Shown piece by piece: positions 5,882-22,331 of a DNA stretch of 34,629 bases. The number at the start of each line of letters is the position of its first letter. The first letter of the stretch is position 1. The notes under the pieces were generated by a model that saw only the letters and a list, made by a program, of their open reading frames with translations, searched no databases and was not told the DNA's origin. Origin of the DNA: Deltaproteobacteria bacterium (GTDB lineage: Bacteria > Myxococcota_A > UBA796 > CAJQPC01); contig JADJYZ010000037.1 of assembly GCA_016719515.1 (NCBI GenBank), forward strand, positions 1-34,629, given 5' to 3'. Both the position numbers and the translations under genes were made by a program.

Positions 5882-6616
5882 ATGCTGTCGTCCCTCGCCG
5901 TGCTGCTCCTGGGTCTAGCCCCCGCTGAGGCCGCGGAGTCCGTCTCCCTCCGTTACCTGCTCGCCGTCGATGGTGAGGTCATCGGGCACCGCGATCTCAA
6001 GATCAACTACCTGCCCACGGACTCCGGCGAGCTGCGGCTCATGGAGTCGTTCACCGAGCTCACCTTCTCCATCGCCGGGCAGCCCTACACCTACAAGCAG
6101 CGCCTCGGCGGCCTGGGCGGCGGCAACTTCAGCTCGGCGATCAGCGACAACGGCACCGGCCGCGAGGTGCAGGCCGTGCGATCCAGCCTCGGCTGGACGG
6201 TCACCGTCGCTGAGGGCAAGACGGCGGAGGTCTACGCCTTGGGCCCCGCGGCCTTTGACCTCACCTCCCTCTCCTTGCTCGATCCCGCCGTGGCCGAGAG
6301 CCTCGCCGGGCGCAGCACGCTCAAGGTGCTCGTCGCCGAGACCGGCGGCGTGATGGAGGGCCCCCTTCGCCAGGCCGCCGACGTGCAGATCAAGCTCGGC
6401 GGCCAGATGATCACCTGCGACGAGTACGTCTGGAGCGTGCCCGAGGGTGAGGTCCGCCTGGACTACGGCCCTGAGGGCCACCTGATGCGCTACACCACCC
6501 GGGTCGCGGGCAAGGTCATCACCGCGACGCTGGACCGCCCTCCCCCGCCGCGCACCTACGGCACGACCATGGACGGGCCGCTGATTCAGTCGAGCGTCGG
6601 CGAAGAGACGCTCTAA
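5882..6616 (+). CDS. Secreted hypothetical protein.
   Basis: Signal peptide MLSSLAVLLLGLAPAEAAES. Non-artefactual composition. Divergent from the rSAM gene. Confidence 0.7.
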   Translation: MLSSLAVLLLGLAPAEAAESVSLRYLLAVDGEVIGHRDLKINYLPTDSGELRLMESFTELTFSIAGQPYTYKQRLGGLGGGNFSSAISDNGTGREVQAVRSSLGWTVTVAEGKTAEVYALGPAAFDLTSLSLLDPAVAESLAGRSTLKVLVAETGGVMEGPLRQAADVQIKLGGQMITCDEYVWSVPEGEVRLDYGPEGHLMRYTTRVAGKVITATLDRPPPPRTYGTTMDGPLIQSSVGEETL

Positions 6617-10430: not shown

Positions 10431-12653
10431 TCAGACGCGCTGGGCGCCTCGGGCGCGGCGCAGGCGATCGGACTCGCCTTCAGCGCGGCGGGCGGCGCGC
10501 ACCTCGTCCTCCAAGCGGCGCAGAGCCTCTCCGGCGGCGGAGACCCGGTCTTGCTCACCGATCAGCTCTTGGCGGGCTTTGCGGGCGGCGCCGCCGATGT
10601 CCAGGAGGCGCGCCGCCGTGGCCGTGAGCTTGGACTCCCAGCGGGCGTGCTCCTCTAAGGTGGCCTCGCGGTCGGCCTTGGCGGCGAGCAGCTCGGGGCG
10701 CTCGGTGGGGTCGGGGCGCTGACCGGCCTGCTCCATCGTCTCGACGCGGCGCATGCGGGCCTCGATCTGGGCGAGGTCTTGGGCGATGGCCTCGGGGCGC
10801 AGCTCTTTGAGGCGACCATCCAGGCGATCGGCCTCGGCGGCCAGGTCAGCGGCCTCGGCGCGCAGCTCGACGACGGTGCGGCGTAGGTCGGCCTCGGCGG
10901 GGGTGGGCAGCTCGGCCTGGCCGATCGCCAGCTCTAAGGCGGCGAGGGACTCCTCAACCCGGGCGAGGAGCTGGCCGCCGCGGGTCTTGGGCGGAGGCGG
11001 CGCGACCACCGGGGCGGCGACGTTCGGCGGCGCAGGGGCGGCGGCGGCAGGTTCAGCGGCGGCGGCGCCGCGCTCCACACGCACCTGGGGGCGGCTGGCG
11101 AGCAGCTCGGGCAGACGCTCGGGGGTGACGTGGGCGCGCAGGTCTCGGCCATAGGCCAAGGGCACCTTGTCGGCGTTGCGCCCGGCGTTGGAGGCGGTCA
11201 CCATCACGACGACGGAGATGAGGATCATCACCGGGAGCGCCGCCATGGCCGAGCCGAAGGTGAGCCCCACGGCGATGGCCCACAACACCCACATCGGCCC
11301 GAGCAGGTTGGGCAGGGTGCGCATCACGCGGTTCACCCGGCCATCTTCGTCCTCAGCGCGGCGGCGTTTTTTGGCGACGAAGCCCCGGCTCTCGGCCAAG
11401 GCGGCGAGGTTATCGACGGTGTCTTCGCTCACGCCAGAGACGAGGCGGAAGCGGCGCTGGTCGAGCACGGGGCTCACCAACAGGGCGTCGATGGGCAGCC
11501 CCGCCCGCAGCGCGACGCCGCGGGCGAGGAGCTCGGCGTCGGTGATCTCCGTGGACTCCGCCGTCCACTCTTCAGGGAGCTTGGGCAGGCCGAGCTGCAC
11601 CACCACCTTGTTGATCGCCTCGGCGGCGTAGCGGGCGCTCGTCTTGCCCGCCCGGGCGCTGCGCCGGGCGTGCCTGCGGCTGGCTTGGCTGGAGTGGCGC
11701 AGCTCCAGCTCAAAGCGGCCTTCAGGCAGGGCCAACGGCGCGGGCTCTAAGGTGTAGCTGGGCGGTGGAGGCGGCGGCGGGGGCTCGTCTTTGGGCGGCG
11801 CGCGGCGGTTTTGAGCCCGCGGCGGCGGGGCGACGATGCGCCCACGAAGGGCCTCGGCGACCTCAGCGGCGCCTTGGGGGCGCTCGTCTGGGGAGAGGCG
11901 CAAGAGCGCGTGGATGATGGCGCAGAGGTCGTCCGGCAGCTCAGGGCGCAGGCTGGCGAGGGGCTCGACCTCGCCGGAGAGCTGGCGTTTGAGCACGGCG
12001 GCGGCGTTTGGCCCGGCGAAGGGCGCCCGGCCTGAAGCGGCGTAGTACAGCACCGTGCCCAAGGAGTAGAGGTCGCTGCGGGGGTCGGCGCGCTCGCCGT
12101 CGTAGACCTCGGGGGCGGCGTGCCCGGCGGTGCCCAAGGCCCCGGTGTGCCGGGTGGACTGCCACTGCTCTAGCCGGGCGAGGCCAAAGTCGGTGAGCGT
12201 CGCCACGCCCGCGTCGTCGATCATCACGTTCGCCGGGGTGATGTCGCGGTGCAGCACGCCGGCGCGGTGGGCGGCGGCGAGCACGTCGGCCAGCCGCGCG
12301 CCGATGGCCCGCAGCGCCGTGCCGCCGATGGGGCCTTCAGCGGCCACCCGCTCGGAGAGGGTGCGGCCCGGGTGGTAGGGCATGGACAAGGCGAGGTGCC
12401 CGTCGAGCTCGTGCAGCTCTTGGGCCAAGAGCGCGCCCTCGTGTTTGATGAGCCCCGCCGTCATCACCTCGCGGCGCAGGCGCTCGCGGGTGGAGGCGTC
12501 GCCGACGAGGTGGGCGTGGAGGATCTTCAGCGCGACCCGGGCGCCGCGCACCCGATCTTCAGCGAGCCAGACCGTCGCCATGCCCCCACGGCCCAGCTCA
12601 CCGATGAGCGTGAACCGCTCACCGAGCACCGCGCCCCGGGCCAAGGCGCTCAA
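10431..12653 (-). CDS. Membrane-anchored Ser/Thr protein kinase. It has an N-terminal kinase domain, a Pro-rich linker, TM helices and a C-terminal coiled-coil.
   Basis: Kinase motifs GELGRGGMATVW, VALK, HRDITPANVMID and DFGLA. Hydrophobic segment NLLGPMWVLWAIAVGLTFGSAMAALPVMILISVVVMV. It ends 15 bp upstream of coxS. The start is TTG or GTG and uncertain. Confidence 0.85.
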   Translation of the reverse strand: MSALARGAVLGERFTLIGELGRGGMATVWLAEDRVRGARVALKILHAHLVGDASTRERLRREVMTAGLIKHEGALLAQELHELDGHLALSMPYHPGRTLSERVAAEGPIGGTALRAIGARLADVLAAAHRAGVLHRDITPANVMIDDAGVATLTDFGLARLEQWQSTRHTGALGTAGHAAPEVYDGERADPRSDLYSLGTVLYYAASGRAPFAGPNAAAVLKRQLSGEVEPLASLRPELPDDLCAIIHALLRLSPDERPQGAAEVAEALRGRIVAPPPRAQNRRAPPKDEPPPPPPPPSYTLEPAPLALPEGRFELELRHSSQASRRHARRSARAGKTSARYAAEAINKVVVQLGLPKLPEEWTAESTEITDAELLARGVALRAGLPIDALLVSPVLDQRRFRLVSGVSEDTVDNLAALAESRGFVAKKRRRAEDEDGRVNRVMRTLPNLLGPMWVLWAIAVGLTFGSAMAALPVMILISVVVMVTASNAGRNADKVPLAYGRDLRAHVTPERLPELLASRPQVRVERGAAAAEPAAAAPAPPNVAAPVVAPPPPKTRGGQLLARVEESLAALELAIGQAELPTPAEADLRRTVVELRAEAADLAAEADRLDGRLKELRPEAIAQDLAQIEARMRRVETMEQAGQRPDPTERPELLAAKADREATLEEHARWESKLTATAARLLDIGGAARKARQELIGEQDRVSAAGEALRRLEDEVRAARRAEGESDRLRRARGAQRV

Positions 12654-12729
12654 CCGCGCACCGGAGGCACCCGACCCGAGCTTGTCTGACGCGCCGCTTC
12701 AGTCACTGAGCACTTCCCTCCCCTGCTCC

Positions 12730-13561
12730 CTATTGTGGGGTGGCCGCCGCTGGCAAACCTTTCCCCAAACGGGCCATGGTGACCCACGCGGCGACGTCAT
12801 CGACCTCCCAAGAGTTGTCGGACCCACGCCAGAGCAGGCGGCCGTCACCGTCGAGCACCAGGATGTGCAGGCTGTGGAGGATGTCGCCTTGGCTCTCGAC
12901 CCGGCTGGCCCCGGCGCGTAACAACAGCGTCTTGAGCGCGTCGAGCTCTAAGCGGGCGAAGGTCCACGTGGGCGGGGTTCGCGCCGCGCTCGGCGCCGTA
13001 GGCCTTGAGCACCTCCAGAGAGTCCCGGGCGGGGTCCAGGGTGACGCTCACGATGCGCCCGTGGCCGAGCTGGCCTTGAAGCTCCTTGAGCTTGCTCGCC
13101 AACAAGGGGCAGGCCTCGGGCATGGGGCAAGACGTGAACAAGAAGGTGAGCACCGTCGGCACGCCTTGGCCCGCGCCGATGAGCACCGGGCCGTCCACGC
13201 CGGGCATCGTGAGCGCCGGGAGCTGCTCCCCTTCAGCCAGGGCGATCACCGCGTCGGGGGCCAGGGCCAGGGGCTCCTCGTGGCCGGTGACCTTGGCGCC
13301 GATGATCCGCACCGTGCCGTCTTCAGCGGTCATCAGGTTCGCCTGGATGAGATCCCCAGGGCGAAGCTGCCGGGCGAGGTTGGGATCGACGACGAAGGTG
13401 GTGGCGCCCTCCTCAAAGGCGCCGGGCACGGGGCCGTGCTCCAGCCGCACGCTGTGCTGGCCGACGTCGCGCACCACGCCGTTGACGGAGTAGGTGTCTC
13501 CAGCGACAAAGTTACAGCCGGCCAAGGCGAAGACGGCGATGAGCCCGCGCATCAGAGGCAC
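12730..13561 (-). CDS. SCO1/SenC family copper chaperone lipoprotein. An apparent frameshift near 12964-12980 interrupts it.
   Basis: Lipobox LAGC. Thioredoxin-like CxxxC (FTSCPMPEACP). The conserved C-terminus WTFARLELD...HSLHILVLDGDGRLLWRG lies in the adjacent frame (ORF 12730..12924). Confidence 0.75.
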
Positions 13562-15895: not shown

Positions 15896-15997
15896 ATGTC
15901 TGAATGGAGAGATCGTCTGCTGCGCTGGCTCGACGGGCTGCTCTTTTTCCCCGAGCCAGAGCCCGCCCGCGTTGAGGCCCGGCGGCCCCGTCGATGA
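15896..15997 (+). CDS. Small ORF of 33 aa (MSEWRDRLLRWLDGLLFFPEPEPARVEARRPRR). It is translationally coupled to the downstream gene.
   Basis: A GGAGG Shine-Dalgarno sits 9 nt upstream of the ATG. The stop overlaps the downstream start as ATGA. Confidence 0.35.
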   Translation: MSEWRDRLLRWLDGLLFFPEPEPARVEARRPRR

Positions 15998-16554
15998 ACC
16001 CTGCCTCGCGTGCTCGCGCAAGGGTCGCGCGGGTGACCGCCGCCCCCCACGACCCGCCCCTGCCCCGCCACTTCCACCGCATCGAGGCCCGGGGCCATGT
16101 GGTGTACTGCCTGAGCCCCTTGGCCCCCGCGGAGCTCGTCCAGGCCGGGGGGCTGCCCCGGGAGGCGATCCTCGGCGTCACCGACCGCGACGTCGGGGAC
16201 TGGGCTTGGGGCCTTCGCCCAAACCAGCTCTTCATGGACCTCTTGACCCGCCTGCTCACCGAGCACGCGGAGCTTGAGCCGACGCTCACCCAGGCCGCCT
16301 TGGCGCTGCGGGTGGGCGTGCTGGAGCTCTGGGACGGCCGCGTCGGCTTCTCCCAGCGCGGTGAAGAGGATCTGCTCGGCTGCTTTCAGGTGCGTGAGGG
16401 TCGGCTGATGCCGCGCTCGTTCAACCCCAACCGGAGCTACACCTTGGTGACCGAGCGAGGCGCCATGCGGCTGCCCGCGCGACTTCAGGCGGCTCTGCTC
16501 GCCGAGCTGCGGTCGCTGCGGGTCTTGTGGCCTGGGCCCTCGACGACGCTCTGA
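15994..16554 (+). CDS. Hypothetical protein of 186 aa.
   Basis: Strong GC3 bias and ordinary amino-acid composition. The antisense ORF 15697..16575 is Arg/Pro-rich and looks like an artefact. Confidence 0.6.
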   Translation: MNPASRARARVARVTAAPHDPPLPRHFHRIEARGHVVYCLSPLAPAELVQAGGLPREAILGVTDRDVGDWAWGLRPNQLFMDLLTRLLTEHAELEPTLTQAALALRVGVLELWDGRVGFSQRGEEDLLGCFQVREGRLMPRSFNPNRSYTLVTERGAMRLPARLQAALLAELRSLRVLWPGPSTTL

Positions 16555-16608
16555 GGCCACCGCGCCGAGGGTCATTTGCGCGGCGTCGGGTTCTCCCCGG
16601 CGTCGCGC

Positions 16609-17562
16609 TCAGGACTCTGGGGCGTCGCTGCCGTTGTGGACGTTCACGATGGTGAGCTGCTCGACGGCGATGCGCACCTGGCCGCTGAGGCGGCGGCGCT
16701 CAAACAGCCGCGCCGCGCCCTCGACGCCCGCTTGGGCCACCTGCTCTCGGGCGCGGAAGAGGTGCAGGGTGAGCAGGCCGGGCTCTAAGGACAACATCCG
16801 CGAGAGCTCATCGGCGTAACGCCAGCCCAGCTCCGCGGGGCGAACCCCGGCGGCGAGATCCTCAAGCCGCGCCCGGGCCAAGGCCAAGGTCACGAGGTGA
16901 TGCACCCGAGAGCTGAGCACGATGGCGCCGCCCCGGTGCTTGATCTCCACATCGACGTGCTCTTGATCTTGGCTCACGCGGAGGGTGAGGGCGATGGTCT
17001 CTAAGCGTGGGCGCAGAGAGGTGTCCCAGGTGGTCGGCAGCTCAGCGCTTCGCGGCGCGACGGGCAAGATGAGGCGCCAAGACTCGTCTCCTAAGACGAG
17101 GCGCTGGCCATCGAGCGCCTCGGACTCCAGGCCCTCGTGCTCGACGATCCAGTGGCCGTCGTTGCCTTCGTAGACGATGGCGAGCATCCCTTCCGCGCTG
17201 GGCAGGCTGAGGATCTCGGCCTCGGACACCCGCAGGAGCTGATCGGCCTCTCGGACCGCCGCCGCGCCTGGGGGGCCGTCGTGGGCGAGCACGAAGCCGC
17301 GGTGGGGGCCGAAGCGCACGCTGACGCCGGCGCTGAGCCCGCGACCGCGGCCGCTCTCCAGGCGCTCGCCGTCTACAAAAGTGCCGTTTCGACTGCCAAG
17401 ATCACGCAGTTGCCACTCTTTGCCGGTCCAGCGTAAAGCGGCGTGCTCAGCGCTGATCTGGCGATCGTCGATGCGCACGGCGCAGTGGCCCGCGCGGCCG
17501 ATGAGCGTGCGCGCGCCGAGGGCGATCAGGGCGTGGTCGTCGTCGGATCGGAGAATTCCCAT
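16609..17562 (-). CDS. FHA domain-containing protein.
   Basis: The N-terminal LIGRAGHCAVRIDDRQISAEHAAL...GSRNGTFVDGERL is a canonical FHA fold signature. Confidence 0.85.
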   Translation of the reverse strand: MGILRSDDDHALIALGARTLIGRAGHCAVRIDDRQISAEHAALRWTGKEWQLRDLGSRNGTFVDGERLESGRGRGLSAGVSVRFGPHRGFVLAHDGPPGAAAVREADQLLRVSEAEILSLPSAEGMLAIVYEGNDGHWIVEHEGLESEALDGQRLVLGDESWRLILPVAPRSAELPTTWDTSLRPRLETIALTLRVSQDQEHVDVEIKHRGGAIVLSSRVHHLVTLALARARLEDLAAGVRPAELGWRYADELSRMLSLEPGLLTLHLFRAREQVAQAGVEGAARLFERRRLSGQVRIAVEQLTIVNVHNGSDAPES

Positions 17563-17749
17563 AGGCGGGAACGTAGCACGCTAGGTCACTCTGAACGCCC
17601 CCAACAGACGCCCTTGAGGGCCTGAACCAATCAAAGTCCGCACGATACCCGCCGAAATCAATTGAAAGAGAGGCGGCGAAGCGCCTGATCTATGCTGCGC
17701 TAGGTTCGCGCGGCGCGTGACCCTGCGACCCCCTCACGGAGAATGACTG

Positions 17750-19222
17750 ATGTCCGGCAACACCTATGTGGTCCTGATTGGTGTCAACGAGTACCCCAAG
17801 CTTGGGGCGGGCGCCTCGCTCAAGGGCTCCTGCAACGACATGCGCCACTGGCTGCGCTTCGCCCGGGTGAGCCTCGGGGTGCCCGGCGAGCAGGTTCAGC
17901 TCCTCACCCACCCGGCCCTTGAGGGCGAAGACGTGCGGCTGCCCAAGGGCCACCACCGCGGCGCGAGCTTGGCCGAGGCGAACGGGGCGATCGACGCCCT
18001 CATCCATTGGCTGCAAGAGAACCCCACGGGCACCGGGCTCATCGTGTACTCCGGCCACGGCGGCCACATCAACCCCGGCGACGACCCCACCGCCACCGAC
18101 TTTGACGGCGACCGCCTCGCCTTGGGCCTCAGCGACGCGGAGATCACCGACGGCACCCTCCGCGGCGCCCTCGTCGTTCAGCAGCTTGACCTGCGCCTCG
18201 CCGCCTTGGGCTTGAACGAGCGCGTGACCTTGGTGATCGACGCCTGCTATGGCGACCTCAACGTGCAGCGTTTTGACCGGGAGCTGATCACCGCCGAGCC
18301 CCAGCCCGACGCCACGACCGGCCTGCGGGTGCTGCTCTCCACCGCCGTCGGCGCGGCCAGCTACGAGGCCTACATCGCCGGTCAGTGGCAGAGCGCCTAC
18401 TCCTTCGCGCTCCTCACCCTGCTCAGCCAGTGGGGCAACGCCCAGGTGGGCGGCGTTCACATCGTCCGGGCGAGCCACCGCGAGCTGACCTTCCGGGCGC
18501 GTGAGCTGCTCAACGTGCTCGGCTACACCGACCAGGCCCCGGCCTTCGCGGGGGCGGCGCGGGCGCTGGACGCCCCGTTCAACAACCCGTCGATCCTTGA
18601 GGTGCCGGTGAGGCCCTCGTGGGTGCCGGACGGCAACCGGAAGATCAAGGAGCTGGGCGGGGACGCTGACGACCTGGGCGTCTGGACGTTGAAGACCGGC
18701 AGCACCATCCTCGCGACGGGGCTGGTGAACAACTCCGGCGCGGCGGTGAGCTTCAACGGCGGCGGCTCGACCATCCAGAACGGCAAGGCGATGTGGTACC
18801 TCCGCAGCACCGGGGCGCCGCAGAGCTTCAGCAGCCTCACGATGGAGTGGCTGGCCCAGACCGCCAGCGGCGGATCGATCTCGTGGAACGTGCCCTCCAA
18901 CCTCACTTATGCCGAGACCGAGGACTACGCGCCGTCGATGACGACGATCACCACGGCCCCGGCGGGCACCTCCTTCGGCAACTTCAGCATCAACGACGCC
19001 AACAGCGACCCCAAGAGCATGTGGGTGTCCGTCGAGGTGACCTCCAACGGCGCGGGCAGCTACAAGGTCAACACCCTCTCGTTCACCGCGACGAGCAGCG
19101 TCACGCCTTACAAGGTCACCCCGTTGCCTCCGCCCGGCTCGAGCTCGGGGAGCTGGACCAAGAACCAGTCCAACATCCCCTTCACCGTCGGCGTGACCTA
19201 CTCCTCCAACACCCTCGGCTGA
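17750..19222 (+). CDS. Caspase-family (peptidase C14) protein with a C-terminal Ser/Thr/Asn/Gly-rich beta-type domain of about 240 aa.
   Basis: His/Cys dyad context, YSGHGG and LVIDACYGD. No signal peptide. The C-terminal half is a low-complexity S/T/N-rich region. Confidence 0.85.
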   Translation: MSGNTYVVLIGVNEYPKLGAGASLKGSCNDMRHWLRFARVSLGVPGEQVQLLTHPALEGEDVRLPKGHHRGASLAEANGAIDALIHWLQENPTGTGLIVYSGHGGHINPGDDPTATDFDGDRLALGLSDAEITDGTLRGALVVQQLDLRLAALGLNERVTLVIDACYGDLNVQRFDRELITAEPQPDATTGLRVLLSTAVGAASYEAYIAGQWQSAYSFALLTLLSQWGNAQVGGVHIVRASHRELTFRARELLNVLGYTDQAPAFAGAARALDAPFNNPSILEVPVRPSWVPDGNRKIKELGGDADDLGVWTLKTGSTILATGLVNNSGAAVSFNGGGSTIQNGKAMWYLRSTGAPQSFSSLTMEWLAQTASGGSISWNVPSNLTYAETEDYAPSMTTITTAPAGTSFGNFSINDANSDPKSMWVSVEVTSNGAGSYKVNTLSFTATSSVTPYKVTPLPPPGSSSGSWTKNQSNIPFTVGVTYSSNTLG

Positions 19223-21570
19223 GGAACGGGCCACACCACCCGCAGCCCCATCGTTAAAAAATGGCGCTCTGGGGTGTTTCCGAAGCGGGTGGCGAGGCGC
19301 TGGGTCATCGGGGGGGAGCCAAAAAAGCCCCCCCGCACCGCGCGGTGGGTGCCCGCATCGGGGGAGTCAACCACCCGGCCATCCTGGATCGGTCCACGGA
19401 CCGACCACCAGTTGCGGCACCAAGTGCGGGCGTTTCCGGCGAGGTCACGCACGCCGTAGGGGCTCTCGTCCGCCTCAAACTCACCGACCGAGAGCAGGCC
19501 CGGCGGCGAAGGAACGGAGCCCAACACCCTCGACCAACGTGGCTCCAGCTCCCGGCCCCAAGGGGTGTACCGCCCGTCCACACCGCGCCCGGCCTTCTCG
19601 ATCTCAAGCTCGTTGGGCAGGTGTCCGCCCATCCAAGCGGCGGCGCGCGCGGCGGCGTCCCACGAGATCGCCGTCACCGGATGATTGACCTCCCCGGGAC
19701 GGCCGAGCACCACACGGTCCCCGCTGCGCACGAGATACTGGTCTTTTATGCTGACCCAGGGCCAACAGCTCTCCACCCCCGCCTCATCCCCAGCGGCGAT
19801 GAGCGCCTCCAAAAACGCCGCGTACTCCCCCAAGGTCACCGGGAAACGCCCCAAGACGAAGCCGTCTACCCACACCCGCTGCCGGGGCAGGCTGTCGGCG
19901 GCGAAGGGGTCTCCGCCGACGATGCAGTAGCCCGGCGGGATGTAGACCTGGTCGTCACGAAGCTCGCCGGGCTCGGGGATCACGATCAGCGCGGGCTCAC
20001 CCCCCTCGGGAGGCACGCCGTCCCAGCGCCCGGCGCGCTCCATGAGCACGGGGTAACGAACGGTGACGCCGTCGGCCTCCAAGGTGACGAGCCAAGATCC
20101 CCGGGGCACGGTCACCTCACGCAGGGGCGTCACGCCGAGGCGCCGCTCGGGCTCGGGCACGAGGCGACGACCCTGCTCGACGAAGCGGTGCAGCCAGGCG
20201 ACGGCGGGCCGGGACGTGCGGATGGACAAGGCGCCGTCGCCCTTGAGGTACGCCGCGTGTCGCCCGCGGTCGTGGCTCGCGAGCAGCAGCTCCGCCCGCT
20301 GCGTCGCCAACGGATCAAGCTGGCGATCGGCGCGCTCCAGCTCGTCGCGGTAGTGGTCGGCGAGGAGCGCGTGGGCCTCGGGAAGCTCGGGATCCCGGTT
20401 GAGCGCGGCGCGGAGATCCTGGTGCCAGGCGACCTCTCGTAAGGTCACCTCGGACTCTAAGGCGGCGGCGCGGTCCTGCATCTCCCAGATGGGCAGCTTG
20501 GACTCGACGGGCGCTTCAGCGCTCAACGACTCCAAGAGCGAGGCGGCGTGGGCCCGAAGCGCCTCGGCCTCCCGCTGGAGCTTGAGGATCCCCGGGCGCT
20601 GGGCCTCGGCGCGGCGCGTCTGGGCGAGGGCCTCGGCGCGGCGCAACGAGCCGTCGAGCCACAACGAGAGCGCCTCGGCCATCGCGCCGGCGTCGGGGTA
20701 GCGGTGAATGGGGTCGGGCATCAGCGCCCGGCCGCAGATGTGGCGCAGCTCGGGGGGGAGCTCCGCGCGCTCGATGGCCTCGGGCCAGCGCGGCGGGTCG
20801 GAGACGAGGCGCCGCCAGATGAGCTTGGGGTCGCCCTCCAGGGGGCCTCGACCGCACAGGACGCTGTGCAGCACGGCGCCCAGACCGTACACGTCCGAGG
20901 CCGGCCCCACCTGATCGTGCTGGCCCCGCGCCTGCTCTGGCGACATAAACGCCGGGGTGCCCAGCACCGCGCCGCCCAAGGTGACGCCCTCGTTCTCCCA
21001 GACCGGCGCCCCGGCGAAGGGCGGCAGCTCCGGCGCGCCGATCCACCGCGCCAGCCCCCAGTCCATCACCCGCACCTCACCGAAGCGCCCCACCATGAGG
21101 TTCGCGGGCTTGAGGTCGCGGTGCAGCACCCCGCGGCTGTGGGCGTACCCGACGGCGTCGCAGATGCTTCGCACCAGGGTGACGAGGCGGTGAACCACGT
21201 CGGGGCCCACGGCCGGGCCGGTGATCATCTCGCCCAGCGTCTTGCCATCCACCAAGGTCATCGTGAACCAGAGGCGCCCGTCAAGAAGCTCTCCGCGGTC
21301 CATCACCGAGACGACGCCGGGGTGCTGCAGCCGCGCCGTGGTCGCGATCTCCCCCAGAAACCTCGCCCGCGCGGCGGCGCTCTCCAGGAGCTCCCAGCCG
21401 AGCACCTTCATCGCCACGGGCACCCGCAGCTTGTGATCCCACACCCGGCGAACCTCCCCCATGCCGCCCCGGGCGATGAGCCCGAGGTCGTGGTACCGCG
21501 CCTCGGGCGACTCAAAGGCCGCCACGGCCGCGGGCTCCCCGTCTGGGGTCCAGGTGGTCTCGTCGTGCAT
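19198..21570 (-). CDS. Ser/Thr protein kinase fused to a C-terminal formylglycine-generating enzyme (FGE-sulfatase/SUMF1-like) domain.
   Basis: Kinase motifs GLIARGGMGEV, AMK, HRDLKPANLMV and DWGLA. The C-terminal region ends RAVRGGFFGS, as FGE does. The likely start is the ATG at 21570 (MHDETTW...). The ORF-track extension to 21702 is Arg/Pro-rich. Confidence 0.8.
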   Translation of the reverse strand: MHDETTWTPDGEPAAVAAFESPEARYHDLGLIARGGMGEVRRVWDHKLRVPVAMKVLGWELLESAAARARFLGEIATTARLQHPGVVSVMDRGELLDGRLWFTMTLVDGKTLGEMITGPAVGPDVVHRLVTLVRSICDAVGYAHSRGVLHRDLKPANLMVGRFGEVRVMDWGLARWIGAPELPPFAGAPVWENEGVTLGGAVLGTPAFMSPEQARGQHDQVGPASDVYGLGAVLHSVLCGRGPLEGDPKLIWRRLVSDPPRWPEAIERAELPPELRHICGRALMPDPIHRYPDAGAMAEALSLWLDGSLRRAEALAQTRRAEAQRPGILKLQREAEALRAHAASLLESLSAEAPVESKLPIWEMQDRAAALESEVTLREVAWHQDLRAALNRDPELPEAHALLADHYRDELERADRQLDPLATQRAELLLASHDRGRHAAYLKGDGALSIRTSRPAVAWLHRFVEQGRRLVPEPERRLGVTPLREVTVPRGSWLVTLEADGVTVRYPVLMERAGRWDGVPPEGGEPALIVIPEPGELRDDQVYIPPGYCIVGGDPFAADSLPRQRVWVDGFVLGRFPVTLGEYAAFLEALIAAGDEAGVESCWPWVSIKDQYLVRSGDRVVLGRPGEVNHPVTAISWDAAARAAAWMGGHLPNELEIEKAGRGVDGRYTPWGRELEPRWSRVLGSVPSPPGLLSVGEFEADESPYGVRDLAGNARTWCRNWWSVRGPIQDGRVVDSPDAGTHRAVRGGFFGSPPMTQRLATRFGNTPERHFLTMGLRVVWPVPQPRVLEE

Positions 21571-21719
21571 GATGAATGCTACAGCGCGGAGGGATCCCCG
21601 GTCAAGGCGGAGGCGCTGCCGCGCCCTTGATGGCCCAGGCGGCGATTGACGCCGGGGGGTGGCGGCGGGCGCCTCGCCGGGTGAGAGTACAGCGTGCCTC
21701 ACCTCCTCTGGAGCCGCTG

Positions 21720-22331
21720 ATGTCGATCCCGGTCCCCCTTCGTTGTGATTGTGGCGCTGTTGCCGGGGAGATCACCGTGAGCCCCGGCGCCGGCAACCAC
21801 TGCGTCTGTTTCTGCGACGACTGCCAGGCCTTCGCCGCCGCCTTGGGCCGCGAGGACGTGCTCGACGCCTGGGGCGGCACCGACATCTACCAGACCGCCC
21901 CTGCGCGTCTGCGCATCACCCAAGGTCAAGACGAGCTGCGCGCCCTGCGCCTCAACCCCAAGGGCCTCGTGCGCTGGTACACCGCCTGCTGCAAGACGCC
22001 CGTGGGCAACATGATGGCCACGCCCCGCTCCCCCTTCGTCGGCGTCATCAGCCGCTTCATCGCCCTGGACGCCGAGGCCCGCGACGCGGCCGTCGGCCCG
22101 GTGACCTCCCACGTCATGGGTCGCTTCGCCAAAGGCGGCTGCCCGCCCCACGCCCACCCCAAGGTGCCGCTCTCGGCGATGCCCGGCATGGCCAAGGTGC
22201 TGCTGCGCACGCTGTTCACCGGCGGCCACAGCCCCTCGCCGTTCATCGTCGATGGCGCCTGGCGGGTTGAGCCCGAGGTGCTGAGCCCCGAGGCCCGGGC
22301 CAAGCTCAGCCCAAGCGCGCCCACGCCTTGA
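21720..22331 (+). CDS. Cys-rich GFA/CENP-V-like zinc-binding family protein.
   Basis: Motifs CDCG...NHCVCFCDDC...WYTACC. SD tggag 9 nt upstream of the ATG at 21720. Confidence 0.65.
   Translation: MSIPVPLRCDCGAVAGEITVSPGAGNHCVCFCDDCQAFAAALGREDVLDAWGGTDIYQTAPARLRITQGQDELRALRLNPKGLVRWYTACCKTPVGNMMATPRSPFVGVISRFIALDAEARDAAVGPVTSHVMGRFAKGGCPPHAHPKVPLSAMPGMAKVLLRTLFTGGHSPSPFIVDGAWRVEPEVLSPEARAKLSPSAPTP

What the first reader, a model, noticed from the sequence alone, without database searches (positions are those of the whole stretch)
16609..21570. FHA protein, caspase-family protease and Ser/Thr kinase::FGE fusion form a compact signalling cluster with convergently overlapping 3' ends
An FHA (phospho-Thr reader) gene is divergent from a cytoplasmic caspase-family gene. 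The caspase gene's last 25 bp overlap, on the opposite strand, the end of a kinase fused to a formylglycine-generating-enzyme-like domain. FGE-like domains fused to kinases and caspases are a recurring but functionally unexplained architecture in myxobacteria and cyanobacteria. Here that fusion sits beside a phospho-Thr reader and a caspase. That suggests a sensor-kinase, phospho-reader and protease circuit, possibly for regulated proteolysis or cell fate. The overlapping 3' ends allow mutual antisense control.
Basis: partly seen in the sequence, partly recalled or inferred. Interest (0 to 1): 0.6.

Follow-up and report, generated by a model that had tools for sequence, protein, structure and literature searches.

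The report
Sensor kinase, FHA regulator, caspase module
A rare but conserved gene unit of uncultured myxobacteria, in which a cytoplasmic sensor kinase probably acts through a phospho-threonine-reading DNA-binding protein to switch on the gene for a caspase-like protease; this is a new wiring of known parts, inferred by computation only.

Summary
At 16609-21570 lie an FHA gene (-), a Peptidase_C14 gene (+) with an invariant His103/Cys166, and a Hanks kinase fused to an FGE-sulfatase-like domain (-). The last 25 bp of the kinase gene overlap the end of the caspase gene.

The kinase and caspase form a convergent, overlapping pair in at least six lineages, down to 46% and 26% identity. The flanks are unrelated. 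Their pairwise divergences correlate (r=0.99).

The FHA protein lies beside this pair in four lineages, in four different arrangements. It is replaced by a sulfatase or a sigma-54 activator in two others.

New findings:
- A direct-repeat promoter (YGMAD-N5-YGMAA-N23-TAnnnT) sits upstream of the caspase gene. In 375 kb of held sequence it occurs only next to genes of this FHA family, in five lineages.
- The FGE-like domain lacks the catalytic Cys pair, has no membrane segment and is not hypervariable.

Best model: sensor kinase, then FHA-wHTH, then the caspase promoter, resembling PknH-EmbR. An immune or cell-death role is not excluded. Antisense control through the overlap is unsupported. This is a new variant of a known kind.

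The parts
16609..17562 (-). FHA-wHTH regulator gene ('FHA-X'), 317 aa
   Evidence: Pfam FHA 1.9e-17. The family alignment of 14 sequences is conserved over the full length. The AlphaFold model has pLDDT 81.
17278..17562 (-). FHA domain (aa 1-95); pThr-binding residues Gly22-Arg23, Ser37, His40 and Asn59-Gly60-Thr61 are invariant
17068..17265 (-). Middle all-beta domain (aa 100-165), unassigned
   Evidence: Secondary structure of the model. No Pfam hit.
17029..17031 (-). Thr178 codon: an invariant Thr (T-T-W-D) in the disordered linker (aa 170-185, pLDDT<50), a candidate phospho-acceptor or FHA-docking site
   Evidence: Thr is conserved in 19 of 19 family members, whereas the surrounding linker varies. 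The linker is low-confidence in the model. The role is inferred.
16642..16995 (-). OmpR/PhoB-type winged-helix DNA-binding domain (aa 190-307); recognition helix about aa 261-277, including His267
17563..17749 (.). Divergent intergenic region between the FHA-X and caspase genes, with conserved blocks
   Evidence: Alignment of five window-clade loci.
17653..17696 (+). Predicted caspase promoter and operator: direct repeats CGAAA (17653-17657) and TGAAA (17663-17667) with a 10-nt period, then 23 nt, then the -10-like TATGCT (17691-17696). There is no -35 at sigma-70 spacing. The caspase ATG is 53 nt downstream.
   Evidence: This is the only match in the window, where shuffles give 0.01. In 25 loci the pattern matches only next to FHA-X genes, in five independent lineages. 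Control sequences give 0 hits.
17750..19222 (+). Caspase-family (Peptidase_C14) gene, 490 aa
   Evidence: Pfam hit. Family alignment. Exhaustive HMMER finds 387 representatives at E<=1e-3, nearly all 450-530 aa.
17750..18574 (+). Protease domain (aa 1-275) with His103 (18056-18058) and Cys166 (18245-18247); Asp30 and Asp164 lie at the positions of the metacaspase S1-pocket acids
   Evidence: Invariant columns. Motifs are kept in all seven lineages. The alignment to metacaspase-4 covers the GxxND and SGHG motifs. The S1 assignment rests on prior knowledge of metacaspase structures.
18575..19219 (+). C-terminal domain (aa 276-490), predicted all-beta, fold unknown; it diverges faster than the protease domain
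   Evidence: No Pfam hit. The model failed, pLDDT 37. In L020 this domain is retained alone, without the protease domain.
19198..19222 (.). 25-bp convergent overlap of the caspase and kinase 3' ends
   Evidence: Read from the sequence. Overlaps of 14-62 bp occur in L004, L010, L019, L020 and L023, and of 4 bp in L021. No terminator-like site in 16400-21900.
19198..21570 (-). Ser/Thr kinase::FGE-like sensor gene, 790 aa
   Evidence: Pfam Pkinase and FGE-sulfatase. Orthologues are 54-100% identical, with a large paralogous family at 40-46% identity.
20671..21498 (-). Hanks-type kinase domain (aa 25-300): Lys55 (VAMK), HRDLKPAN with Asp152, DWG with Asp170, SPE
   Evidence: Motif scan of all orthologues. 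Coordinates.
19951..20670 (-). Conserved middle region (aa 301-540), no Pfam domain and no membrane segment
   Evidence: 50-62% identity among distant orthologues, as conserved as the kinase domain. Maximum KD19 is 1.23.
19231..19956 (-). FGE-sulfatase-like (C-type-lectin fold) domain (aa 539-780) without the catalytic Cys pair; RGGFFGSPPMTQRLATRFG occupies the place of the active-site loop
   Evidence: Alignment to human FGE 1y1e: Cys336 falls in a gap, Cys341 aligns to Pro and Cys346 to Leu. All orthologues show the same loss. The domain is not hypervariable. No template-repeat copy exists in the window.
21576..21605 (-). Sigma-70-like promoter match (TTGACC-N18-TAGCAT) ending 6 nt before the kinase ATG; possibly a leaderless mRNA
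   Evidence: Consensus scan: 1 found against 0.3 expected. This is weak evidence.

Best explanation
This is a cytoplasmic Ser/Thr-kinase signalling module whose output is a caspase-like protease.

Proposed steps:
1. The kinase carries a non-catalytic FGE/C-type-lectin-like domain that binds an intracellular ligand. The ligand is probably conserved rather than fast-evolving.
2. Ligand binding activates the Hanks kinase, which autophosphorylates.
3. The FHA-wHTH protein docks on phospho-Thr through its FHA domain and is probably phosphorylated on the invariant linker Thr178.
4. The regulator then dimerises or opens, and its OmpR/PhoB-type winged helix binds the 10-nt-phased direct repeats at 17653-17667. 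These take the place of a -35 element.
5. This activates transcription of the caspase gene, whose product carries out the proteolysis.

Shown here:
- the domain identities;
- intact catalytic residues in the kinase and the caspase;
- loss of the FGE Cys pair;
- the winged-helix fold;
- conserved linkage of the genes;
- the promoter motif being confined to FHA-X loci.

Inferred: ligand sensing, the phosphorylation steps, DNA binding, the direction of regulation (activation or repression) and the protease substrates.
For: Linkage:
- The kinase::FGE and caspase genes are convergent and overlapping in the window clade, L004/L009, L010, L011/L019, L021/L022 and L023, with unrelated flanks.
- Pairwise identities of kinase and caspase correlate at r=0.99 over 21 pairs; kinase and FHA-X at r=0.90 over 10 pairs.
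- FHA-X lies next to the pair in four different arrangements. It also lies next to 45-46% kinase::FGE paralogues in Minicystis and Sorangium.

FHA-X as a transcription factor:
- The model has pLDDT 81.
- The pThr-binding residues are invariant, and so is Thr178 in a disordered linker.

Operator:
- The pattern YGMAD-N5-YGMAA-N23-TAnnnT has one match in the window, upstream of the caspase gene, where 0.01 is expected.
- In 375 kb of window plus loci it matches only at five independent FHA-X lineages. Three matches are upstream of the caspase gene (window clade, L004, L019). Two are upstream of the gene that follows an FHA-X-kinase operon lacking both FGE domain and caspase (L012, L014). FHA-X is thus the common factor.
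- The one lineage with GCAA units (L004) has Tyr where the GAAA lineages have His on the recognition helix.

Kinase and caspase:
- The catalytic motifs are intact in all lineages.

FGE-like domain:
- The Cys pair is absent, there is no membrane segment, and conservation is uniform.

Precedent:
- PknH phosphorylates EmbR (OmpR-type wHTH plus FHA) in an FHA-dependent way and so stimulates promoter binding (PMC4601284).
Against: - There is no experimental or expression evidence of any kind.
- The winged helix is not detected by sequence (Pfam; hhalign probability 2.8%). It rests on one model built from 14 sequences.
- The motif was defined after seeing two of its instances. FHA-X loci L010, L016, L017, L024 and L025 show no match.
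- Two lineages keep the kinase-caspase pair without a local FHA-X, so transcription through FHA-X cannot be the only link between kinase and caspase.
- L020 keeps only the caspase C-terminal domain. This hints at a direct, protease-independent tie between that domain and the kinase.
- No PP2C phosphatase gene was seen in the window.
- The ligand and the protease substrates are unknown.
Confidence: 0.5

Rival explanations
1. Immune or abortive-infection (conflict) system. The FGE/C-lectin-like domain recognises an invader molecule inside the cell. The kinase then activates the pre-made caspase post-translationally, by phosphorylation or through the caspase C-terminal domain, and the protease arrests or kills the cell. 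FHA-wHTH only amplifies or restrains expression.
For: - FGS/FGE-like domains are proposed as intracellular invader sensors, joined to kinase, FHA and caspase effectors (PMC8195603; PMC7159879). They also serve as sensors of defence STAND proteins (PMC13581612).
- The family is rare and patchy (6 clusters; 7 loci among 185,579 species genomes) and sits in different genomic contexts.
- The kinase-caspase pair persists without FHA-X.
- Kinase::FGE paralogues are many in Sorangium and Polyangium.
- FHA-X also pairs with kinase-STAND-TPR proteins.
- A reverse transcriptase lies next to the Minicystis paralogue.
Against: - The window is not a defence island. Neighbours include xanthine dehydrogenase, GST, cupin, a DEAD helicase, topA and dprA.
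- PADLOC gives only generic kinase-domain hits and nothing for the caspase or FHA-X.
- The FGE-like domain is under uniform purifying selection with no variable region: 64-69% identity in the VR-equivalent stretch among distant orthologues.
- There is no DGR. No RT gene was found among the window genes scanned, there is no template repeat in the window, and none beside the Minicystis RT.
- Synteny is stable within the window clade at 80-100% identity.
Confidence: 0.22
2. Direct protein coupling without transcriptional control. The caspase C-terminal domain is the partner, or even the ligand, of the kinase's FGE-like or middle region, so that kinase and protease form one complex. This would be a split version of the known caspase-FGE fusion proteins. 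FHA-X would be a separate substrate regulating other genes.
For: - The kinase-caspase pair is the invariant core, and its divergences track each other (r=0.99).
- L020 retains the C-terminal domain alone at the same convergent position.
- Caspase-FGE-sulfatase fusions are known, in 33 of 671 bacterial metacaspases (PMC3501461).
- In Sorangium and Minicystis, small proteins of 170-182 aa sit convergent to the kinase in the caspase's position.
Against: - No interaction could be tested here.
- The C-terminal-domain model failed (pLDDT 37).
- The small partners show no significant similarity to the C-terminal domain (hmmsearch E 0.03-0.17; hhalign probability <1%).
- This reading does not explain the FHA-X-linked promoter motif upstream of the caspase gene.
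- The correlation of r=0.99 is also what plain co-inheritance along the species tree would give.
Confidence: 0.15
3. The functional link is antisense, meaning transcriptional interference through the overlapping, terminator-less 3' ends.
For: - The convergent arrangement, with an overlap or near-abutment and no intrinsic terminator, is kept in all lineages that have a caspase partner: 25, 20, 14, 62, 4 and 22 bp.
Against: - The overlap length is not conserved, and the overlapping codons encode the least conserved tails (tail identity 9-43% among distant orthologues; tails printed).
- Convergent genes are tightly packed throughout this 70% GC window, with a 4-bp overlap at 6613-6616 and gaps of 16-54 bp elsewhere. 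Tight packing here may therefore be neutral.
- No RNA data are available.
Confidence: 0.08
4. The fusion is a true bifunctional kinase and formylglycine-generating enzyme that matures a sulfatase, as the database names suggest.
For: - The Pfam FGE-sulfatase hit is strong.
- NCBI names relatives 'bifunctional serine/threonine-protein kinase/formylglycine-generating enzyme family protein'.
- A sulfatase gene lies divergent from the orthologue in L020-L022.
Against: - The catalytic Cys pair of FGE is missing in the window protein and in all orthologues, including those next to the sulfatase.
- No sulfatase was found among the window genes scanned.
Confidence: 0.02

Closest known systems
PknH-EmbR of Mycobacterium tuberculosis (Hanks kinase plus a transcription factor combining FHA and an OmpR-type wHTH)
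   Different: - Domain order is reversed: FHA is N-terminal here and the wHTH C-terminal.
- There is no BTAD/SARP domain; an unassigned beta domain and a disordered Thr-bearing linker stand in its place.
- The kinase is cytoplasmic with an FGE-like sensor, not a membrane receptor kinase.
- The target is a caspase gene, not cell-wall genes.
- There is no detectable sequence relationship outside the FHA domain.
OmpR/PhoB response regulators acting at direct-repeat boxes that replace the -35 element (for example PhoB at pho boxes; from general knowledge)
   Different: There is no receiver domain and no histidine kinase, so input would come through phospho-Thr and FHA. DNA binding has not been shown.
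FGS (FGE-sulfatase/C-type-lectin) centred predicted conflict systems, and kinase-CLec DGR targets (Kaur et al. 2020, 2021; Dore et al. 2024; Vallota-Eastman et al. 2020)
   Same: An FGE-like lectin-fold domain sits C-terminal to a signalling or effector domain, in association with a kinase, FHA and a caspase, in bacteria with a multicellular habit.
   Different: - No STAND or MoxR-vWA NTPase, no effector-associated adaptor domains, and no DGR.
- The FGE-like domain is not hypervariable.
- The caspase and FHA are separate genes.
- The output appears to be transcriptional.
Caspase-FGE-sulfatase fusion metacaspases/orthocaspases (Asplund-Samuelsson et al. 2012)
   Same: A C14 protease is functionally tied to an FGE-like domain.
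   Different: Here the tie is by conserved gene adjacency with a kinase::FGE, not by fusion. The protease carries its own unassigned C-terminal domain of about 215 aa, and it is only marginally similar to solved metacaspases (E 0.02).
GarA/OdhI-type intramolecular phospho-Thr switch (FHA binds its own phosphorylated tail)
   Same: An FHA protein has an invariant Thr in a disordered segment (Thr178). GarA and OdhI FHA domains are close structural matches.
   Different: The Thr lies in an internal linker before a DNA-binding domain, not in an N-terminal tail. Whether the switch exists here is purely inferred.

Membership tests
Peptidase C14 (caspase/metacaspase/orthocaspase) | Profile match above the curated threshold | tested here: met
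   PF00656 at 33.4 bits against a cut-off of 21.4. Divergent relatives L019_500 and L021_502 fall below Pfam detection but are clear BLAST homologues.
Peptidase C14 (caspase/metacaspase/orthocaspase) | Catalytic His-Cys dyad | tested here: met
   His103 (SGHG) and Cys166 (DACY) are invariant in A1 and are kept in six lineages where the N-terminus is available.
Peptidase C14 (caspase/metacaspase/orthocaspase) | Caspase-hemoglobinase fold, and basic P1 specificity of the metacaspase branch | not tested
   No model of the protease domain was made. Asp30 and Asp164 align with the metacaspase ND and DxC acids, but this is an inference from prior knowledge.
FHA domain | Profile match and the conserved pThr-binding residues (Arg, Ser, His, Asn) | tested here: met
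Hanks-type Ser/Thr kinase | Profile match plus the catalytic Lys, HRD Asp and DFG Asp | tested here: met
   PF00069 at 1.1e-29. VAMK Lys55, HRDLKPAN and DWG (a DFG variant) are present in the window protein. HRDLKPxN is kept in all ten orthologues and paralogues examined, and DWG in nine of them.
Formylglycine-generating enzyme (FGE/SUMF1) | FGE-sulfatase fold or profile | tested here: met
   PF03781 at 1.8e-30. phmmer E 1e-15 to human FGE structures.
Formylglycine-generating enzyme (FGE/SUMF1) | Catalytic (copper-binding) Cys pair, Cys336/Cys341 of human FGE | tested here: not met
   In the alignment to 1y1e, Cys336 falls in a gap and Cys341 aligns to Pro. All orthologues show the same loss. 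The domain is therefore FGE-like, not an FGE.
OmpR/PhoB-type winged-helix DNA-binding domain | Fold: N-terminal beta sheet, three helices, C-terminal hairpin | tested here: met
OmpR/PhoB-type winged-helix DNA-binding domain | Sequence-profile membership (Pfam Trans_reg_C) | tested here: not met
   No hit at E<=10 for 12 family members. hhalign against the PhoB C-terminus gives probability 2.8%. This is a structural relative, not a demonstrable Pfam member.
OmpR/PhoB-type winged-helix DNA-binding domain | Binding to direct-repeat DNA | not testable with these tools
   The only evidence is the co-occurrence of a phased direct-repeat promoter with FHA-X genes.
EmbR/SARP regulators | N-terminal OmpR-type wHTH followed by a BTAD domain (and, in EmbR, a C-terminal FHA) | tested here: not met
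   The domain order is reversed and no BTAD is present. The protein resembles EmbR in how it would work but is not a member.
Diversity-generating retroelement target | RT gene, template repeat, and a variable region at the 3' end of the CLec/FGE-like domain | tested here: not met
   No RT gene was found among the window genes scanned. There is no second copy of the last 300 nt of the kinase gene and no hypervariable stretch.
MoxR-vWA ternary or STAND-FGS conflict systems | A vWA plus MoxR pair, or a STAND NTPase, encoded with the FGS protein | tested here: not met
   None were found in the window or in the related loci that carry the trio.
Catalogued anti-phage defence systems (PADLOC-DB 2.0) | Specific model hits for the components | tested here: not met
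   Only generic kinase-domain hits (PD-T4-6, mad6). Nothing was found for the caspase or FHA-X.

The most novel reading that the evidence does not exclude
A minimal bacterial cell-fate or immune switch without an NTPase. A non-diversifying intracellular lectin-fold sensor kinase gates a metacaspase-like executioner in two ways at once. It acts directly through the caspase's private C-terminal domain, which would explain why the pair survives without FHA-X and why that domain survives alone in L020. It also acts transcriptionally through a previously unrecognised family of FHA-to-OmpR-fold transcription factors with their own direct-repeat regulon. This would be a prokaryotic analogue of kinase-controlled caspase activation.
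Probability: 0.2. Interest if true: 0.75.

Novelty: new variant of a known kind. Interest (0 to 1): 0.55.

Why it matters
Kinase::FGE and caspase::FGE proteins are abundant in myxobacteria and cyanobacteria, and nobody knows what they do. This locus offers a small, fully cytoplasmic case of three genes, and it yields concrete hypotheses that can be tested:
- a specific regulator, the FHA-wHTH protein;
- a specific phospho-site candidate, Thr178;
- a specific operator, 17653-17667;
- a specific regulated gene, the caspase.

The work also defines a family of Ser/Thr-kinase-dependent transcription factors that domain databases annotate only as 'FHA domain protein'. Finally, it shows that the FGE-like domain here is a conserved, non-enzymatic sensor rather than a hypervariable one. 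That bears on whether such modules are immune receptors or ordinary signalling devices.

Tried and rejected
1. Caspase C-terminal domain structure. The model from a 6-sequence alignment gave pLDDT 37, which is unusable, so no fold search was run.
3. Sequence-level detection of the wHTH failed (Pfam; hhalign against PhoB recalled from memory; PDB profile search).
4. DGR hypothesis. There is no template repeat in the window and none near the Minicystis RT.
5. Are the small convergent partners in Minicystis and Sorangium (170 and 182 aa) homologues of the caspase C-terminal domain? This is not supported.
6. Shared 9-mers in caspase upstream regions across six lineages: none found. The motif emerged only as a gapped direct repeat.
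7. The metagenome scan with the caspase alignment found one near-identical locus only.
8. Matching contig lengths between caspase-family and kinase-family hits, as a proxy for co-location, gave 3 matches out of 20 (P0148/P0035, P0149/P0034, P0147/P0032; against 65). This is suggestive but too indirect to count.
9. PADLOC gave generic kinase hits only.
10. The ORF 11760-13205 (-) in L010 was rejected as spurious. The real gene there is on the other strand (AAA-ATPase_like/PDDEXK_9).

Full report
**1. The observation**

The window is about 70% GC. Its closest relatives are metagenome-assembled genomes labelled Myxococcota or Deltaproteobacteria. Third-position GC and ORF lists give three genes:
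- 16609-17562 (-), 317 aa;
- 17750-19222 (+), 490 aa;
- 19198-21570 (-), 790 aa from the ATG that relatives also use.

Pfam confirms FHA, Peptidase_C14, Pkinase and FGE-sulfatase, all above the curated cut-offs. The caspase and kinase genes converge and share 19198-19222, 25 bp. The FHA and caspase genes diverge across 187 bp. The caspase has SGHG His103 and DACY Cys166, invariant in the family. None of the three proteins has a membrane-like segment. The description is correct.

**2. Is the cluster more than an accident?**

Word-indexed search found only six caspase relatives. A scan of 185,579 species genomes found seven loci, and a metagenome scan found one. Context look-ups and tBLASTn mapping show the three genes together in four gene orders:
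- window clade (80-100% identity): FHA(-) <> caspase(+) >< kinase(-);
- L004/L009: caspase(+) >< kinase(-) FHA(-);
- L010: as L004, with an AAA-ATPase_like/PDDEXK_9 gene inserted;
- L011/L019: FHA <> kinase >< caspase.

Against L004 the identities are 57% (kinase::FGE, full length), 46% (caspase) and 52% (FHA protein, full length), while all flanking genes differ.

Searching with the post-kinase part of the kinase showed an orthologue group at 54-100% identity and a large paralogous family at 40-46% (Sorangium, Polyangium, Minicystis, Chondromyces). Their contexts are as follows:
- L021/L022, marine (57%): the kinase converges on, and overlaps by 4 bp, a 502-aa caspase homologue with the dyad intact. 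A sulfatase gene stands where the FHA gene would be.
- L020: the partner is reduced to the caspase C-terminal domain.
- L023 (46%): kinase >< Peptidase_C14 with a 22-bp overlap, and a sigma-54 activator divergent from the kinase.
- Minicystis rosea and Sorangium sp. (45-46%): an FHA-family gene lies within 1 kb of the kinase, and small unrelated convergent ORFs replace the caspase.

Pairwise identities of kinase and caspase correlate at r=0.99 over 21 pairs; kinase and FHA protein at r=0.90 over 10 pairs. This fits co-inheritance without partner exchange, although shared species history contributes to it. So the invariant core is the convergent kinase::FGE and caspase pair, and the FHA protein is a frequent third member.

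**3. What the FHA protein is**

Its homologues are conserved over the whole 305-320 aa, not just the FHA domain. An AlphaFold model (pLDDT 81) shows four parts:
- FHA domain (aa 1-95);
- a second beta domain (aa 100-165);
- a disordered linker (aa 170-185);
- a beta3-alpha1-alpha2-alpha3-hairpin unit (aa 190-307).

The pThr-binding residues of the FHA domain are invariant. One Thr in the disordered linker (Thr178, TTWD) is conserved in 19 of 19 sequences. The family is not exclusive to this trio. In L012 and L014 the gene directly precedes a 1161-1238-aa Pkinase-AAA_16-TPR protein, and in L016 and L017 no kinase is adjacent.

**4. A promoter that travels with the FHA-wHTH gene**

The FHA/caspase spacer contains blocks conserved in the window clade. 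Two of them are CGAAA and TGAAA, 10 nt apart. They are followed after exactly 23 nt by TATGCT, 53 nt before the caspase ATG.

The generalised pattern YGMAD-N5-YGMAA-N23-TAnnnT has one match in the window, where 0.01 is expected from shuffles. In the 25 loci held it matches only at the following places:
- the window clade, upstream of the caspase gene;
- L004/L009, upstream of the caspase gene, with GCAA units;
- L019, upstream of the caspase gene, as a triple repeat;
- L012 and L014/L015, as triple repeats between the FHA-kinase(STAND-TPR) operon and the next gene, which encodes a TSP_3/LamG protein.

Reversed or complemented control sequences give no match. FHA-wHTH is the only component common to all five lineages. 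Loci with the kinase-caspase pair but no FHA gene (L021-L023) lack the pattern.

Phased direct repeats in place of a -35 element are the usual site architecture for OmpR/PhoB-type activators (general knowledge). The lineage with GCAA units has Tyr where the GAAA lineages have His on the predicted recognition helix. That is a single covariation, and I treat it only as a lead.

Caveats: the pattern was derived after seeing two instances, and five FHA-family loci (L010, L016, L017, L024, L025) have no match.

**5. The kinase::FGE protein**

The kinase motifs are intact: VAMK, HRDLKPAN, DWG and SPE. Aligned to human FGE structures, the domain lacks the catalytic cysteines: Cys336 falls in a gap and Cys341 aligns to Pro. 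All orthologues share this loss. It is therefore a lectin-fold binding domain, not an enzyme that makes formylglycine, despite names such as 'bifunctional kinase/formylglycine-generating enzyme'.

There is no membrane segment, so any ligand is intracellular. Conservation is even along the protein. The stretch equivalent to a DGR variable region is 64-69% identical among distant orthologues, and no template repeat or RT is present. This argues for a conserved ligand. The middle region (aa 301-540) is as conserved as the kinase domain and has no assignment.

**6. The caspase**

It belongs to a distinct, deeply divergent C14 branch. Exhaustive HMMER against 1.84 billion representatives finds only 387 proteins at E<=1e-3 and 199 at E<=1e-10. 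Nearly all are 450-530 aa, and the matches run past the protease domain. The nearest solved structures are metacaspases, at marginal E-values of 0.02-0.09. The ND and DxC acids of the metacaspase S1 pocket are conserved (Asp30, Asp164). This suggests Arg/Lys specificity, an inference from prior knowledge. The C-terminal domain of about 215 aa could not be modelled.

**7. The overlap**

Convergent abutment without a terminator-like site is conserved. The overlap length ranges from 4 to 62 bp, however, and the residues it encodes are the least conserved. Convergent genes are tightly packed throughout this window. Antisense control remains possible but has no support.

**8. Interpretation**

The best-supported model (about 0.5) resembles PknH-EmbR (PMC4601284):
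1. The sensor kinase binds its ligand and is activated.
2. The FHA-wHTH regulator docks on phospho-Thr and is phosphorylated.
3. The regulator binds the direct repeats.
4. Caspase transcription changes.

The kinase-caspase pair persists without FHA-X, and the C-terminal domain survives alone in L020. An additional direct kinase-caspase link is therefore plausible.

The conflict-system reading (FGS as an invader sensor; PMC7159879, PMC8195603) is not excluded. It is weakened by the housekeeping-like neighbourhood, the lack of PADLOC hits and the non-diversifying sensor.

**9. Novelty**

All the parts are known. The kinase::FGE fusion and FGE-caspase links are documented. In the literature I searched I did not find:
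- the conserved convergent pair of kinase::FGE with a 500-aa caspase carrying its own C-terminal domain;
- the FHA-to-OmpR-fold regulator family;
- the associated direct-repeat promoter.

I rate this as a new variant of a known kind. Interest is moderate (0.55), because everything beyond gene linkage and fold is inference.

Noticed in passing
L008:8001-11821: A near-identical MAG contig (98-100% identity, long-read 'tig' assembly) shows frame breaks inside both the caspase (after aa 130) and the kinase::FGE (about aa 650-704) relative to the window. These are probably assembly indels rather than pseudogenes.
   Followed up: no
L004:12903-14141 (-) and L010:6653-7897 (+): A metzincin lipoprotein (HELGHQxGLxH), 47% identical between the two loci, lies next to the trio in both, on different sides. 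It may be a lineage-specific fourth member.
   Followed up: partly
L010:11802-13463 (+): An AAA-ATPase_like plus PDDEXK_9 gene is inserted between the kinase and the FHA gene. The long antisense ORF 11760-13205 there is spurious.
   Followed up: yes
L024:2679-5941 (Minicystis rosea CP016211): A SWIM zinc-finger protein and a 435-aa RVT_1 reverse transcriptase sit directly upstream of, and co-directional with, a 45% kinase::FGE paralogue. No template or variable repeat was found, so it does not look like a DGR. The RT type was not determined.
   Followed up: partly
L020:9396-10055 (-): The convergent partner of the kinase::FGE here is only 219 aa and matches only the C-terminal domain of the L021 caspase homologue. 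The protease domain is gone.
   Followed up: partly
L020:5523-6977, L021:5547-6977, L022:2012-3442: In the marine lineage a sulfatase gene is divergent from the kinase::FGE, even though the FGE-like domain lacks the catalytic cysteines. A polytopic membrane protein of 468 aa follows it.
   Followed up: no
L012:8001-15344, L014:8001-14476: FHA-wHTH genes directly precede giant Pkinase-AAA_16(STAND)-TPR kinases. A TSP_3/Laminin_G_3 gene follows, preceded by the same triple direct-repeat promoter. This is a second kind of module built on the same regulator.
   Followed up: partly
window:21571-21719 and 21576-21605 (-): A sigma-70-like match (TTGACC-N18-TAGCAT) ends 6 nt before the kinase ATG, suggesting a leaderless transcript. 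The neighbouring DUF6151 gene probably starts near 21720 rather than at 21576, judging by homologue lengths.
   Followed up: no
window:21552-21570 (kinase aa 1-7) and window:17023-17034 (FHA-X aa 177-180): The kinase N-terminus (MHDETTW; MDDETWF in L004; MSDSTWG in L010) and the FHA-X linker (TTWD) share a Thr-Trp motif. Both may be phospho-sites read by the FHA domain.
   Followed up: no
window:10431-12653 (-): A second Hanks kinase (740 aa, with no recognised sensor domain) lies 4 kb away and is syntenic throughout the window clade. Its relation to the module is unknown.
   Followed up: no
window:13871-15745 (+) and 15994-16554 (+): Two genes without any Pfam hit (624 aa with a hydrophobic segment, and 186 aa) sit beside the FHA gene and are conserved only in the window clade.
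   Followed up: partly
window:68-3928 (-): Two large proteins with MopE-type metal-binding motifs and Receptor-L/LRR-like repeats. They are unrelated to the finding.
   Followed up: no
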